DNA of 16,518 nt from a virus. Lineage: Duplodnaviria; Heunggongvirae; Uroviricota; Caudoviricetes. The stretch lies in IMG/VR virus record IMGVR_UViG_2526164609_000012; one strand, given 5' to 3'. Every line of letters begins with the position of its first letter. The stretch's first letter is position 1. The notes under the pieces are model-generated. The model did no database searches. It had not been told where the DNA came from and was given only the letters and a program-made list of their open reading frames with translations. The translations under genes were made by a program, and so were the position numbers. This document shows, piece by piece, positions 5,363-16,518 of this stretch.

Positions 5363-5937
5363 GTGACTCTTAAACGGGCCTGTTCCCTGCTGACGGTGAA
5401 ATCCTTCAGTGAGGATGAACGGGTGATCACCGGGATTGCGTCAACGCCTTCTCCGGATCGGGATGGTGACATCCTGGAGCCGGAGGGCGCGGAGTTTGGC
5501 AGTGCGATCCCGTTTCTCTGGCAGCATGACCATTCCCGCCCGGTGGGGCAGTGTACGGTGCGCCGGGTCAGCGAAGGGCTGGAAATCACGGCAACACTGG
5601 TGAAGCCCGTACCGGATATGCCGTCGCAACTGGCTGCCCGGCTGGATGAGGTCTGGGCGGCCATTAAGACCGGGCTGGTCAGGGGCTGTCCGTGGGCTTC
5701 CGTCCCCATGAATACACCTTTCTGGACGGAGGCGGACTGCATTTTCTGCGCTGGGAACTGATGGAGGTGTCTGCCGTCACCGTGCCCGCGAATGCGGAAT
5801 GCACCATCCGGACCATTAAATCTTACGACAGCCCGTTTTCTGCCGCGTCCGGCAACCGGAAACCGGTGGTGAAAATCGCATCTTCTGCCGGCGCTGCGGC
5901 ACAGTCAACAACCGTTTTTCATAAGGAAAAGACCATA
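5363..5937 (+). pseudogene. HK97-family prohead protease, frameshifted and in frame with the capsid gene
   Basis: GTG start at 5363 with AGGAGG RBS. N-terminal part (ITGIASTPSPDRDGDILEPEGAEFGSAIPFLWQHDHSRPVGQ) matches prohead protease, but this frame stops at 5759-5761. The conserved GLSVGF...EVSAVTVPANAECTI part is in another frame, open from 5668. One extra G in the GGGG run at 5682-5685 would join the two. The second frame has no stop before the capsid gene. Confidence 0.7.
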
Positions 5938-7299
5938 ATGAATATTGGCGAACAGATTAAAAGTTTTGAAAACAAGCGTGTAGCGCTGGCAGCCTCCCTT
6001 GAGGAGGTCATGACCAAAGCCGCAGAGGAAGGGCGCACGCTGGATGTGGAGGAGGAAGAGCATTACGACAACACCGCAGCGGAAATCCGTCAGGTGGATG
6101 CGCACCTGAAGCGCCTGCGTGAACTGGAAGCCGGTAAGGCCGCCACGGCGCAGCCGGTGAAACAGGCCGGTAACGGGAATGTGGCCGCGGTGGCTTCTGC
6201 GCCGGTGATCCGTGTGGAGCAGAAACTGGATAAGGGGATTGGCTTCGCCCGCTTTGCCAAATCGCTGGCTGCGGCTAAAGGCGTCCGATCTGAAGCCCTG
6301 GAAGTGGCCCGTCGTCAGTATCCGGATGACAGTCGTCTGCATCATGTCCTGAAATCGGCAGTGGGCGCGGGGACCACCACGGATCCGCAGTGGGCAGGCA
6401 GCCTGTCTGAATATCAGGAATACGCACAGGACTTTATTGATTACCTGCGTCCGCAGACCATTATCGGGCGATTTGGTCAGGGCGGGATCCCTGCACTTCG
6501 TCAGGTGCCGTTCAATATCCGTGTGCACGCCCAGGTGTCCGGCGGTGCTGCCGGCTGGGTGGGTGAGGGTAAGGCAAAACCCCTGACGAAGTTTGATTTT
6601 GAATCCATCACCTTCAGTCATGCGAAGGTGTCGGCCATTGCGGTACTGACGGAAGAGCTGATCCGTTTTTCCAGTCCGGCAGCTGATGCGCTGGTCCGTA
6701 ATGCGCTGGCAGAAGCGGTGGTGGCGCGTCTGGACACAGACTTTGTGGACCCGAAAAAAGCCGCAGTGGCAGATGTCTCCCCGGCGTCCATCACCCATGA
6801 TGTGAAGGGCAAGGCATCAACCGGTAACCCGGATGCGGATGCAGAGGCGGCGTTTGGACAGTTTGTGGCAGCAAACCTGCAGCCCACCGGTGCGGTCTGG
6901 CTGATGTCCAGCACCAATGCCCTGGCGCTGTCCATGCGTAAAAATACGCTGGGTCAGAAGGAATACCCGGACATGACCCTGCTGGGGGGGACCTTCCAGG
7001 GGCTGCCGGTGATTGTCTCCCAGTACGTGGGTGACCAGCTGGTGCTGGTGAATGCCCCGGATATTTATCTGGCGGATGACGGCGGCGTGGCAGTGGATAT
7101 GTCCCGCGAGGCATCACTGGAAATGCAGTCTGAGCCGACCGGCGACAGTACCACGCCGTCGCCGGTGGAGCTGGTTTCCATGTTCCAGACAGGCAGTGTG
7201 GCCATCCGTGCGGAGCGCTGGATCAACTGGCGTCGTCGCCGTACCGCGGCGGTGGCGGTGATCACCGGTGTGAACTACGGCAGTGCGTCCGGCGGCTGA
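5938..7299 (+). CDS. major capsid protein, HK97 fold, with N-terminal coiled-coil delta/scaffold-like domain
   Basis: ATG at 5938 with AAGGA about 10 nt upstream. N-terminus (MNIGEQIKSFENKRVALAASLEEVMTKAAEEGRTLDVEEEEHYDNTAAEIRQVDAHLKRLRELEAGK) is coiled-coil-like as in HK97 delta domains; the rest has capsid-like size and composition. Same frame as the upstream protease C-terminus with no intervening stop. Confidence 0.85.
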   Translation: MNIGEQIKSFENKRVALAASLEEVMTKAAEEGRTLDVEEEEHYDNTAAEIRQVDAHLKRLRELEAGKAATAQPVKQAGNGNVAAVASAPVIRVEQKLDKGIGFARFAKSLAAAKGVRSEALEVARRQYPDDSRLHHVLKSAVGAGTTTDPQWAGSLSEYQEYAQDFIDYLRPQTIIGRFGQGGIPALRQVPFNIRVHAQVSGGAAGWVGEGKAKPLTKFDFESITFSHAKVSAIAVLTEELIRFSSPAADALVRNALAEAVVARLDTDFVDPKKAAVADVSPASITHDVKGKASTGNPDADAEAAFGQFVAANLQPTGAVWLMSSTNALALSMRKNTLGQKEYPDMTLLGGTFQGLPVIVSQYVGDQLVLVNAPDIYLADDGGVAVDMSREASLEMQSEPTGDSTTPSPVELVSMFQTGSVAIRAERWINWRRRRTAAVAVITGVNYGSASGG

Positions 7300-7343
7300 G
7301 TCTGATAAGGAGGACGGGAGGCGAGCGCCTCCCGTAACAGGTT

Positions 7344-7565
7344 ATGGCAAAGATCCGATATCTGCAGGGCACGCATGATGCCCGGGCCGGGGATATCCGT
7401 GATGTGGCACAGCCGTGCGCGGAGGTGCTGGTTCGCCTGGGAAAGGCGGAGTACATCACGGTGCGACGTCCGGCAGGTCAGAAAAAGAAACGTGATGCGG
7501 AGCATGGCGAATGTGGAACCTTTTACAGCGAACCCGAAAAAAACAGAAATCAGGACGTGACGTAA
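7344..7565 (+). CDS. hypothetical small ORF between capsid and portal genes
   Basis: 73-aa ORF with ATG start and no recognisable motif; overlaps the portal start in another frame. Weak support. Confidence 0.15.
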   Translation: MAKIRYLQGTHDARAGDIRDVAQPCAEVLVRLGKAEYITVRRPAGQKKKRDAEHGECGTFYSEPEKNRNQDVT

Positions 7566-15695: not shown

Positions 15696-15701
15696 TATTT
15701 T

Positions 15702-16094
15702 TCACTGAGTTAGCAGTGTATTTTGCGTGTTTTCAGGGCGCAGTTCAGGTTCATTCTGCCAGACCCATTTCGTCAGGTCATGTCCCTTAACCTGCTGCCA
15801 GTCAACACCGGCAATCAGCCAGTTAAACTCGTCGGGAGTGAGGTGCCAGGCAGCGTCATTTGCACGTGGCCAGCGGAAGCTGCCTTTGTGCAGACGGCGG
15901 GTACACAACCACACCCCGTGTTTATCCCACCGGAGAACTTTGATACGCGAACGGGCTTTGTTAACAAAGACGAAGGCGGCTCCCTCATGCCATGTCGACC
16001 GGAGTTCATCCTGTATATACTGCGTCAGTGAGTCGATGCCCCGGCGCATGTCAACAGGTTTAATTGCGATGAAGACATTATCAGGACTGAGCAT
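15702..16094 (-). CDS. IS66-family TnpB (Orf2)
   Basis: Conserved Orf2 pattern (NVFIAIKPVDMRRGIDSL...IKVLRWDKHGVWLCTRRLHKGSFRWP...WHLTPDEFNWLIAGVDW). Start set at the internal ATG (MLSPDN...) because the longer ORF-track start at 16193 would run into the adjacent IS3-family terminal sequence. Stop is 6 nt before the tnpC start. Confidence 0.8.
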   Translation of the reverse strand: MLSPDNVFIAIKPVDMRRGIDSLTQYIQDELRSTWHEGAAFVFVNKARSRIKVLRWDKHGVWLCTRRLHKGSFRWPRANDAAWHLTPDEFNWLIAGVDWQQVKGHDLTKWVWQNEPELRPENTQNTLLTQ

Positions 16095-16167
16095 ATTTGA
16101 GTGCCCTGAAGACATCGGTAAGTTGTGACAGCTGACAGCACATCCGTACTCCACCGGGAAGGAAGAG

Positions 16168-16518
16168 TGAAGTGGCACACTGAATTTGGCCACCTGAACA
16201 GAGGTGATATGCTCACCTCAGAACAACACAGGTGCTCCAATGAAAAAAAGAAATTTTAGCGCAGAGTTTAAACGCGAATCCGCTCAACTGGTTGTTGACC
16301 AGAAATACACGGTGGCAGATGCCGCCAAAGCTATGGATGTTGGCCTTTCCACAATGACAAGATGGGTCAAACAACTGCGTGATGAGCGTCAGGGCAAAAC
16401 ACCAAAAGCCTCTCCGATAACACCAGAACAAATCGAAATACGTAAGCTGAGGAAAAAGCTACAACGCATTGAAATGGAGAATGAAATATTAAAAAAGGCT
16501 ACCGCGCTCTTGATGTCA
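16168..16518 (+). mobile_element. left end of an IS3-family element (IS911-like), continuing past the window
   Basis: Begins TGAAGTGGCACACTGAATTTGGCCACC (TG-initiated terminal repeat); OrfA starts 72 nt in. Identification as IS911-like is from memory of the OrfA sequence. Confidence 0.65.
16240..16518 (+). CDS. IS3-family OrfA (HTH transposase subunit), 3'-partial at window edge
   Basis: ATG at 16240, open to the window end: [93 protein letters not shown], an HTH plus leucine-zipper OrfA as in IS911/IS3. Absent from the ORF track because it has no stop in the window. Confidence 0.75.

What the first reader, a model, noticed from the sequence alone, without database searches (positions are those of the whole stretch)
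5363..16518. Four independent inactivating lesions against an intact lysis and moron region
Protease frameshift, portal stop, IS1 in the tail gene and IS truncation of the tail module all hit structural genes. The endolysin, Rz/Rz1, lipoprotein moron, RHH protein, HNH and terminase genes show no lesions by eye. This pattern is typical of cryptic prophages that retain host-beneficial or selfish cargo.
Basis: inference. Interest (0 to 1): 0.45.

Follow-up and report, generated by a model that had tools for sequence, protein, structure and literature searches.

The report
Decaying lambdoid prophage in Shigella
This is the late-gene half of a dead Shiga-toxin-phage-like prophage in a Shigella draft genome, broken by a frameshift, a stop codon and insertion sequences; it is an ordinary case of IS-driven prophage decay, and nothing solid shows that selection is keeping the unbroken genes.

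Summary
The window is one whole draft contig, AKNG01000034.1, from a Shigella assembly. It carries the lysis-to-tail region of a lambdoid prophage whose head module matches Stx phages BP-4795 and 2851.

Three of the four reported lesions are real, independent and present in about 10-15 other assemblies:
- a 1-bp deletion (G5 to G4, 5682-5685) in the S78 protease domain of a protease-capsid fusion gene;
- GAG to TAG at portal codon 167 (8009-8011);
- a 768-bp IS1 with a 9-bp target duplication in the major tail gene (11799-12566).

The fourth is not a shown truncation. An IS66-family element sits in codon 12 of the tape-measure gene. In complete relatives it is a simple insertion with an 8-bp duplication, and all distal tail genes follow. 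Here IS911 cuts it 351 bp before the contig end.

The lysis, moron, HNH and terminase genes are intact in the window. That split is expected by chance (P about 0.17-0.6). HNH and terminase are packaging genes, not cargo. TerL varies like a neutral sequence (7 nonsynonymous : 2 synonymous) and carries a nonsense mutation in a sister strain. Only the lysis genes show a weak sign of constraint, and recombination confounds it.

Verdict: a known kind of object, of low interest.

The parts
50..583 (+). Endolysin, 177 aa, intact, with an Ala/Gly-rich hydrophobic N-terminus that looks like a signal-anchor-release (SAR) domain
   Evidence: Pfam Phage_lysozyme E=3e-26. 92-93% aa identity over the full length to L001 and L002. 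Intact in all relatives except L028.
919..1386 (+). Rz spanin, 155 aa, with Rz1 lipoprotein (1139-1324, 61 aa) embedded in another frame; both intact
   Evidence: Pfam Phage_lysis E=1e-49 and Rz1 E=2e-21; translations.
1725..2051 (+). Moron-like lipoprotein, 108 aa, with a TonB C-terminal domain; lipobox LVMG|C; lies in a 42-46% GC patch
   Evidence: Pfam TonB_C E=9e-15. Aligns to the E. coli TonB C-terminal domain, PDB 8rd6 and 1u07, E~1e-15. GC profile. The exact protein occurs on >=1000 contigs.
2183..2383 (-).
   Evidence: Pfam DUF3950 E=4e-20; named YlcI/YnfO in the annotated relatives. The ribbon-helix-helix fold was not tested.
2425..2790 (+). HNH endonuclease, 121 aa, intact; a packaging accessory next to the terminase genes
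   Evidence: Pfam HNH E=4e-8. Role of HK97 gp74 in cos cleavage: PMC9410871.
3081..5299 (+). Terminase small subunit (3081-3641, 186 aa) and large subunit (3638-5299, 553 aa), both intact here
   Evidence: The sister strain (L008/L015) has TGG to TAG at the position equivalent to 5130.
5363..7299 (+). Pseudogene of the prohead protease (S78)-scaffold-major capsid fusion; 1-bp deletion in a G run at 5682-5685 gives ORFs of 132 and 512 aa
7511..8875 (+). Portal pseudogene with an amber codon TAG at 8009-8011 (codon 167 of 454)
   Evidence: Pfam Phage_portal on both fragments.
8872..9933 (+). 353-aa ORF after the portal gene (ATGA overlap) with 2.3 copies of a 162-bp repeat at 9097-9467; intact. 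It is fused to the portal in some relatives through a G5/G6 run at 8856-8860. Not a lesion.
9930..11400 (+). Head-tail connector (9930-10256), head closure protein (10266-10616), gp10-like protein (10613-11059) and tail completion protein gp17 (11056-11400); all intact
11464..12957 (+). Major tail protein gene split by IS1 into 11464-11798 and 12567-12957
11799..12566 (+). IS1, 768 bp, with InsA and InsB ORFs; 9-bp target duplication TAAATTCCT at 11790-11798 and 12567-12575
   Evidence: Pfam Zn_ribbon_InsA and DDE_Tnp_IS1 on the same element in relatives.
12972..13651 (+). Tail assembly chaperones G (12972-13346) and T (13370-13651), intact
13699..13732 (+). First 11 codons of the tape-measure gene, ending in the 8-bp IS66 target TCAAAATT (13725-13732)
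13733..16167 (-). IS66-family element, ISEc49-like: TnpC 14094-15695, TnpB 15702-16094, 3' part of tnpA. 2435 of 2766 bp are present; the rest is cut off by IS911.
16168..16518 (+). Left 351 bp of IS911 (IS3 family), running off the contig end
   Evidence: 99.7-100% identity to IS911 copies; the window is the whole contig.

Best explanation
The window holds the lysis-to-tail half of a lambdoid prophage. It has an HK97-type head, a lambda-type tail and the head module of Stx phages BP-4795 and 2851. The prophage died in an ancestor of several Shigella lineages and is now decaying neutrally under the well-known Shigella expansion of insertion sequences.

Inferred order of events:
1. First came a 1-bp slip in a G5 run of the protease-capsid gene, an IS1 insertion in the major tail gene, and an IS66-family insertion in the tape-measure gene.
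2. Later, in the window's own lineage, came the portal amber mutation and then IS911 hitting the IS66 element.

Each head or tail lesion alone should block particle formation. This is inferred from the essential roles of these proteins in HK97 and lambda. The endolysin, spanins, TonB_C lipoprotein, DUF3950 protein, HNH and terminase genes are unbroken mainly because few mutations have landed so far and these genes are a small target. There is no demonstrated selection on them.
For: Lesions and their exact nature.

Reproducibility: the same lesions occur in independent complete and draft assemblies. The exact frameshift product is on 183 contigs and the portal fragment on 111.

Order of events: the G4 frameshift and IS1 are shared by the window-type loci and the second type (L010-L012, L016, L064). 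IS66 is shared with the rearranged loci that carry the tail half (L004-L007). The TAG is in the window type only, and the second type has its own 101-bp portal deletion and a 1-bp deletion.

Neutral decay: within the Shigella clade the structural genes show 22 nonsynonymous: 10 synonymous sites and TerL shows 7:2, neither different from a neutral expectation of 0.74. Between the window and a distant relative, protease-capsid shows 17:73 and portal 25:45.

Continuing decay in sister strains: a TerL nonsense mutation, and a split of the prophage at IS1.

Chance: it explains the hit pattern, P=0.17-0.63.

Shigella IS expansion, including IS1 and IS911: PMC7373316.
Against: The lysis genes (endolysin, the 37-aa ORF, Rz) show 1 nonsynonymous: 7 synonymous variable sites. 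This differs from TerL plus structural genes at P=0.0035, or P=0.043 when a 4-site tract is counted once. That could mean purifying selection.

The TonB_C lipoprotein and the DUF3950 protein have only one variable site in 528 bp. Their exact sequences are very widespread.

No expression or induction data are available. Some of the extra frameshifts seen in sister long-read assemblies could be sequencing errors.
Confidence: 0.85

Rival explanations
1. Domestication. The lysis cassette (SAR-type endolysin, Rz/Rz1) and the TonB_C lipoprotein moron are kept by selection because they help the host, for example in cell-wall turnover, vesicle control or exclusion of phages and colicins. The morphogenesis genes are free to decay.
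For: The lysis genes vary almost only at synonymous sites (1:7; P=0.0035 or 0.043). The endolysin and Rz stay intact in nearly all Shigella copies, including those that have lost the holin and the upstream region. There is a precedent: the DLP12 lysis operon in E. coli K-12 is reported to modulate vesicle production (PMC7918800). The moron has low GC and a promoter-like site at 1665-1692.
Against: Four of the seven synonymous sites lie within 49 bp. They are shared by set B and by L014, which otherwise groups with set A by carrying the TAG, so their distribution does not fit the tree. Both allele sets already occur in other prophage endolysin genes. Together this points to one gene-conversion tract.

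The absence of lesions is expected by chance (P=0.55-0.63).

In the closest complete genome a 1263-bp IS3-family element sits between Q/pR' and the holin, so late transcription of these genes is probably cut off. The promoter-like site is not above the shuffled background.

Confidence: 0.15
2. Assembly artefact. Some or all of the lesions are errors of a draft assembly, such as homopolymer miscalls or chimeric joins through repeats.
For: The window is an entire draft contig that ends inside IS911. The IS66|IS911 junction at 16167/16168 was found in no other sequence searched. A similar but not identical junction, 31 bp further in, exists on a S. dysenteriae plasmid. A T5/T6 difference at 11438-11442 separates the window from all complete relatives.
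Against: The G4 frameshift, the TAG, and IS1 and IS66 with their target duplications are identical in complete genomes and in drafts from other projects. A nonsense substitution and IS insertions with target duplications are not typical sequencing errors.
Confidence: 0.05
3. The element is defective on its own but still mobile. Co-resident lambdoid prophages supply protease-capsid, portal and tail proteins, or repair the genes by recombination. Its intact terminase, HNH and lysis genes would then still serve phage spread.
For: The terminase, HNH, connector, head closure, gp10-like, gp17 and G/T genes are all intact. Shigella genomes carry several lambdoid remnants. Recombination with other prophage copies is visible in the endolysin gene. 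From memory, not checked here: complementation within the defective prophage pool of E. coli O157 Sakai (Asadulghani et al. 2009).
Against: TerL varies as a neutral sequence and carries a nonsense mutation in a sister strain. In many genomes the prophage is split in two at IS1. Two IS elements, 768 bp and 2.8 kb, enlarge and interrupt the late operon. The 0.24% divergence between the two locus types accrued with no repair of the shared frameshift.
Confidence: 0.05

Closest known systems
Stx-converting phages BP-4795 (Marienburgvirus, NC_004813) and 2851 (Pankowvirus, NC_049943)
   Same: Same late-gene order and about 91-94% DNA identity in the portal region: TerL, 645-aa protease-capsid fusion, 73-aa ORF, portal, repeat ORF, connector, head closure, gp10-like, tail terminator, Ig-domain major tail protein. 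The portal/repeat-ORF junction sequence is identical to BP-4795.
   Different: Both phages have the G5 run (intact 645-aa ORF) and GAG at portal codon 167, and neither has an IS element in the stretch fetched. Nothing in the window bears on stx.
E. coli K-12 cryptic lambdoid prophages DLP12 and Qin
   Same: They are dead lambdoid prophages that keep a holin-endolysin-Rz/Rz1 cassette, a lipoprotein moron at the same position (Bor), a YlcI/YnfO (DUF3950) gene and terminase remnants (gene content from memory). The DLP12 lysis operon is reported as domesticated (PMC7918800).
   Different: DLP12 and Qin have lost almost all head and tail genes by deletion. Here nearly every late gene is still present and only four are hit, so decay is at an earlier stage. 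The moron here is a TonB_C lipoprotein, not Bor.
IS-driven genome degradation in Shigella (Hawkey et al. 2020, PMC7373316)
   Same: IS1 and IS911 are two of the five IS expanded in all Shigella species. Reference chromosomes carry 229-348 IS copies and at least 199 pseudogenes. The window shows IS1, IS911 and an IS66-family element within 5 kb.
   Different: In a term search of the main text of that paper the word 'prophage' does not occur, so this locus is not described there. I found no paper that describes it, but I did not search specifically for it.
HK97 head assembly and packaging module
   Same: S78 prohead protease, HK97-fold capsid protein, HK97-family portal, gp10-like protein, and an HNH endonuclease next to TerS and TerL.
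   Different: Protease, scaffold and capsid are fused in one 645-aa ORF that lies before the portal gene. A repeat-containing ORF follows the portal.

Membership tests
Defective (cryptic) lambdoid prophage | Lambdoid late-gene synteny: lysis cassette, terminase, head genes, tail genes | tested here: met
   Gene-by-gene tblastn map against annotated E. coli prophages; Pfam domains.
Defective (cryptic) lambdoid prophage | At least one disrupted essential morphogenesis gene | tested here: met
   Protease-capsid frameshift, portal amber codon, IS1 in the major tail gene, IS66-family element in the tape-measure gene.
Defective (cryptic) lambdoid prophage | No infectious particles on induction | not testable with these tools
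   Needs mitomycin C induction plus plaque or packaged-DNA assays.
Domesticated prophage remnant (cargo kept by selection) | Unbroken genes are hit less often than chance predicts | tested here: not met
   P(no hit in lysis and moron genes)=0.55-0.63; P(all four hits in structural genes)=0.17-0.26.
Domesticated prophage remnant (cargo kept by selection) | Purifying selection on retained genes after the phage died | tested here: inconclusive
   Lysis genes 1N:7S, but one 4-site recombination tract; collapsed P=0.043. TerL 7N:2S and HNH 2N:1S show no constraint. The moron plus DUF3950 have one variable site.
Domesticated prophage remnant (cargo kept by selection) | Expression and a host phenotype | not testable with these tools
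   No transcript or mutant data. An IS3-family insertion upstream of the holin in the closest complete genome argues against late-promoter expression.
IS1 | About 768 bp, terminal inverted repeats GGTAATG...CATTACC, InsA and InsB ORFs, 9-bp target duplication | tested here: met
   11799-12566; duplication TAAATTCCT. ORFs 11854-12129 and 12048-12551. Pfam IS1 domains on the same element in relatives.
IS66 family | tnpA-tnpB-tnpC organisation, ends starting GTAAGC, 8-bp target duplication | tested here: met
   TnpC has DDE_Tnp_IS66 domains and TnpB has TnpB_IS66. 99.7% identity to ISEc49-type copies. The 8-bp TCAAAATT duplication is seen in the complete copy in L003. In the window the tnpA end is missing.
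IS911 (IS3 family) | Left end TGAAGTGGCAC... and the orfA start, near-identical to named IS911 copies | tested here: met
   99.7-100% identity over 16163-16518 to elements annotated as IS911. Only 351 bp lie in the window.
HK97-type prohead protease-capsid fusion | Peptidase_S78 domain followed by a Phage_capsid (HK97 fold) domain in one ORF | tested here: met
   Intact homologue: S78 at residues 48-152 and Phage_capsid at 386-635. The window copy is split at codon ~107.

The most novel reading that the evidence does not exclude
The small set of genes that stays intact in every Shigella copy is kept for the host. These are the SAR-type endolysin with Rz/Rz1 and, above all, the 108-aa lipoprotein that carries a complete TonB C-terminal domain. 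The lipoprotein could act in the periplasm as a membrane-anchored decoy for the TonB boxes of outer-membrane transporters. That would block TonB-dependent phages or colicins, a kind of superinfection exclusion that, as far as I know, has not been described.
Probability: 0.12. Interest if true: 0.55.

Novelty: already known. Interest (0 to 1): 0.12.

Why it matters
It matters little beyond annotation. It is a clean, dated example of how a lambdoid prophage dies in Shigella: first a homopolymer slip and two IS hits, then a nonsense mutation and IS-mediated rearrangement.

It also shows that "no lesion by eye" does not mean "retained by selection". The intact TerL already evolves as a neutral sequence.

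For pipelines, three practical points:
- Window ends that coincide with draft-contig ends inside IS elements can look like truncations.
- PGAP's "frameshifted portal" call in this phage family marks a common two-ORF variant that is also present in phage BP-4795.
- PHROG's "Rz-like spanin" label for the TonB_C lipoprotein is probably wrong.

Tried and rejected
1. A second portal lesion. The portal and the following 353-aa ORF are out of frame relative to the 859-aa "portal" of L002, and PGAP flags the same state in L001 as frameshifted. I rejected this as a lesion. The G5 (two-ORF, ATGA overlap) form is in 76 IMG/VR contigs against 41 for G6, and phage BP-4795 has the identical junction.

2. 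Checking the IS66|IS911 junction in other sequences. No ORF across the junction is on record. No exact match exists in the GTDB species representatives. None of the complete genomes read has it. E. coli genomes and plasmids have only a near-miss 31 bp away on a S. dysenteriae plasmid. The source itself turned out to be the draft contig, so what lies beyond IS911 stays unknown.

3. Extra frameshifts in sister long-read assemblies (L011, L016, L028). I did not count them as decay, because indels there may be sequencing errors. Only substitutions and large events were used.

4. Promoter and terminator scan around the moron. There is one promoter-like site at 1665-1692 and no terminator, which is not above the shuffled background.

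5. A regex hit suggesting a "G1" allele of the protease run turned out to be an unrelated IS911 sequence.

6. Literature search for TonB-like prophage lipoproteins found nothing relevant.
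Full report
**What the window is.** The 16,518-base window is identical, end to end, to a whole draft contig, AKNG01000034.1 of assembly GCA_000268105.1. The sources label its proteins as Shigella dysenteriae or Shigella boydii. No complete E. coli genome covers more than 78% of it. The best matches are lambdoid prophages at 94-97% identity that stop matching at 13731. Stx1a-, Stx2a- and Stx2c-converting phages match in the same way. Over 3700-16167 the window is 99.98% identical to the complete Shigella chromosome CP026807.1, with one substitution and one T-run length difference.

**Gene map.** I mapped the genes with annotated relatives L001 and L002, tblastn and Pfam. In order:
- endolysin 50-583
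- a 37-aa ORF 804-917
- Rz 919-1386, with Rz1 1139-1324
- a TonB_C-domain lipoprotein 1725-2051
- a DUF3950 (YlcI/YnfO) gene 2183-2383 on the minus strand
- HNH 2425-2790
- TerS 3081-3641 and TerL 3638-5299
- a protease-scaffold-capsid fusion gene 5363-7299
- a 73-aa ORF 7344-7565
- portal 7511-8875
- a 353-aa repeat ORF 8872-9933
- connector, head closure, gp10-like and gp17 genes, 9930-11400
- major tail protein 11464-12957, interrupted by IS1
- chaperones G and T, 12972-13651
- the first 11 codons of the tape-measure gene from 13699

The same head module, in the same order, is present in phages BP-4795 and 2851.

**Lesion 1, protease frameshift: confirmed.** The window has GGGG at 5682-5685. 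L001, L002, phage 2851 and phage BP-4795 have GGGGG and an uninterrupted 645-aa ORF. In the intact protein, Peptidase_S78 covers residues 48-152 and the HK97-fold capsid domain covers 386-635. The shift at codon ~107 therefore splits the protease and separates the capsid domain from its start codon. It leaves ORFs of 132 and 512 aa. Among all loci held, 53 have G5 and 18 have G4, and every G4 locus belongs to the Shigella lineage. The exact 132-aa product is on 183 contigs.

**Lesion 2, portal stop: confirmed.** Codon 167 of 454 is TAG (8009-8011) where relatives have GAG.

**Lesion 3, IS1: confirmed.** IS1 occupies 11799-12566 (768 bp), flanked by a 9-bp direct repeat, TAAATTCCT. Removing the IS and one repeat copy restores the sequence seen in L002. 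It is a simple transposition into codon ~112 of the 238-aa major tail protein.

**Lesion 4, "IS truncation": only partly right.** An IS66-family element begins at 13733, after the 8-bp target TCAAAATT. It has TnpC and TnpB on the minus strand and is 99.7% identical to ISEc49-type copies. In every complete Shigella genome read that carries this junction, the element is 2766 bp and is flanked by an 8-bp duplication. It is followed at once by the remaining 1086 codons of the tape-measure gene and by tail genes M, L, K, I and J. So the event is an insertion, not a truncation.

In the window the element stops at 16167, 332 bp short, and the left end of IS911 begins at 16168. IS911 then runs to the last base, which is the end of the contig. 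I found this junction nowhere else. A S. dysenteriae plasmid has IS911 inserted 31 bp further into another copy of the same IS66-type element. Whether the distal tail genes survive in this strain cannot be told from the window.

**A possible fifth lesion that is not one.** Compared with the 859-aa "portal" of L002, the window lacks one G at 8856-8860. The portal therefore ends at 8875 and a 353-aa ORF starts at 8872 with an ATGA overlap. PGAP flags the same state in L001 as frameshifted. But the two-ORF (G5) form is in 76 IMG/VR contigs and the fused (G6) form in 41. Phage BP-4795 has the G5 junction, letter for letter as in the window, and phage 2851 has G6. This is a common variant, not damage.

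**Are the lesions real and independent?** Yes. The frameshift, the TAG, and IS1 and IS66 with their duplications are present in complete genomes (CP026807.1, CP026834.1, CP026823.1, CP045784.1). They are also present in drafts from other projects: MINS01, CABVVM01, JBCJFJ01, AAURHS01 and PSSQ01.

Their distributions differ. A second locus type (L010-L012, L016, L064) lies next to ruvAB-znuABC-lpxM and has lost its holin region to IS elements. It shares the G4 frameshift, and L064 shows that it shares IS1 as well. But it has GAG at portal codon 167, and instead carries its own 101-bp portal deletion (equivalent to 8163-8263) and a 1-bp deletion at 9818. A third set of loci (for example S. boydii Sb227, CP000036) holds the tail half: pocR, IS1, the 3' part of the major tail gene, G, T, the interrupted tape-measure gene, then the tail genes. 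This shows that the prophage was later split at IS1.

The likely order is therefore: frameshift, IS1 and IS66 first; the portal lesions later and independently in the two lineages.

**Is the contrast with the "intact" region meaningful?** Within the window the named genes are indeed intact. The holin is outside the window. In the closest complete genome the holin and Q are intact, but a 1263-bp IS3-family element lies between Q/pR' and the holin.

With coding length as the target, the chance that four random hits all fall in head and tail genes is 0.17-0.26. The chance that none falls in the 1.6 kb of lysis and moron genes is 0.55-0.63. So the pattern carries no statistical weight.

The grouping is also post hoc. 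HNH next to the terminase genes is a packaging accessory in HK97-type phages (PMC9410871, citing Kala et al. 2014), and terminase is a morphogenesis function.

**Selection test.** The frameshift is shared by both locus types, so differences among the 19 Shigella-lineage copies mostly arose after the phage died. One of them, L057, lacks the frameshift. Variable sites, as nonsynonymous: synonymous:
- endolysin, the 37-aa ORF and Rz: 1:7
- TonB_C lipoprotein plus DUF3950: 1:0
- HNH: 2:1
- TerS: none
- TerL: 7:2, including TGG to TAG in CP026834.1
- protease-capsid through the major tail gene: 22:10

TerL and the structural genes fit a neutral 0.74 nonsynonymous fraction (P=0.72 and 0.31).

As a control, the window compared with the distant relative L001 gives 17:73 for protease-capsid and 25:45 for the portal. 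The method does detect past purifying selection, and that selection has been relaxed.

The lysis genes differ from TerL plus structural genes at P=0.0035. But four of the seven synonymous sites lie within 49 bp (217-265). They are shared in a way that conflicts with the TAG-based tree, and both allele sets already occur in other prophage endolysins. One gene-conversion tract is the simplest reading. Counted once, P=0.043. That is a hint, not a demonstration.

Variable-site density is similar across regions, at 4.6-7.2 per kb, except in the 528-bp moron plus DUF3950 block, which has one site.

**Wider family.** In 117 IMG/VR loci with this portal region, TerL is broken in 8 of 45 complete copies. 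Protease-capsid is broken in 9 of 67, and the portal in 6 of 62 once the G6 form is set aside. Terminase is not specially preserved. A survey of 1384 prophages reports that replication, packaging and lysis genes are preferentially lost in incomplete prophages (PMC7744054). It fits a prophage at an early stage of decay.

**Comparison with what is known.** This is a defective lambdoid prophage in a genus known for IS expansion. IS1 and IS911 are among the five IS expanded in all Shigella species, with 229-348 IS copies per reference chromosome (PMC7373316). The nearest textbook cases are the K-12 cryptic prophages DLP12 and Qin. By memory, they keep a lysis cassette, a lipoprotein moron and a YlcI/YnfO gene. 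The DLP12 lysis operon has been reported to modulate vesicle production (PMC7918800). That precedent keeps the domestication reading alive for the lysis genes only.

**Verdict.** The fourth lesion is misdescribed, and the window end is a contig end. The object is of a known kind, and interest is low.

Noticed in passing
window 8856-8860 (G run) and 8866-8875 (AAAAAATGA): The portal and the following repeat ORF are either two genes (G5, ATGA overlap) or one 859-aa fusion (G6). Both forms are common: 76 against 41 IMG/VR contigs, with BP-4795 having G5 and phage 2851 having G6. In the G5 form an A6 run sits just before the stop codon, so a -1 slip could also make the fusion. That idea is untested, and L001 lacks the A6 run.
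   Followed up: partly
window 9097-9467: There is a 162-bp (54-aa) tandem repeat, 2.3 copies, inside the 353-aa ORF. The ORF length varies among relatives, presumably through repeat copy number: 299 aa in L001, 353 aa here, about 405 aa in L002 and 461 aa in BP-4795. The C-terminal part has a weak CBM_5_12 match, below the Pfam cut-off. The function of this ORF is unknown; it may be a head decoration or fibre protein.
   Followed up: partly
window 1725-2051: A 108-aa lipoprotein (lipobox LVMG|C) consists almost entirely of a TonB C-terminal domain. It aligns to E. coli TonB residues in PDB 8rd6 and 1u07 at E~1e-15. It lies in a 42-46% GC patch, at the position Bor occupies in lambda, and the exact sequence is on >=1000 contigs. 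PHROGs labels the family 'Rz-like spanin', probably from its position alone. It could be a TonB-box decoy; a literature search found nothing on it.
   Followed up: partly
L008/L015 (CP026834.1), equivalent to window 5130: A sister strain has TGG to TAG in TerL (a 497-aa product). The terminase gene, intact here, is already dead in a close relative.
   Followed up: yes
L009 7393-8655 (CP026807.1), about 1.3-2.6 kb upstream of the window start: A 1263-bp IS3-family element (IS600-sized) is inserted in the DUF1378 gene, between the Q antiterminator/late promoter region and the holin. It probably cuts late transcription off from the whole region in the window.
   Followed up: partly
L004-L007, L018-L020, L022, L023, L026 (e.g. 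S. boydii Sb227, CP000036): In many Shigella genomes the DNA left of IS1 is not the head module but chromosomal pocR/cob genes plus an IS911. The prophage has been split at IS1 by rearrangement. The head half appears next to ruvAB-znuABC-lpxM in other loci (L010-L012, L016).
   Followed up: partly
window 11438-11442: A T5 run lies in the gp17/major-tail intergenic region where all complete relatives have T6. It may be a homopolymer miscall in the draft assembly or a true variant. It has no coding consequence.
   Followed up: no
window 50-170: The endolysin N-terminus (YGLSAAVLALIAAGAPAP) looks like a signal-anchor-release domain. In relatives the upstream holin is a 71-aa class II (phage-21-like) holin. 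This suggests a pinholin/SAR-endolysin system, in which the endolysin can reach the periplasm without the holin.
   Followed up: no
window 16130: A single A/G difference inside the IS66 tnpA remnant separates the window from all other copies of this element examined.
   Followed up: no
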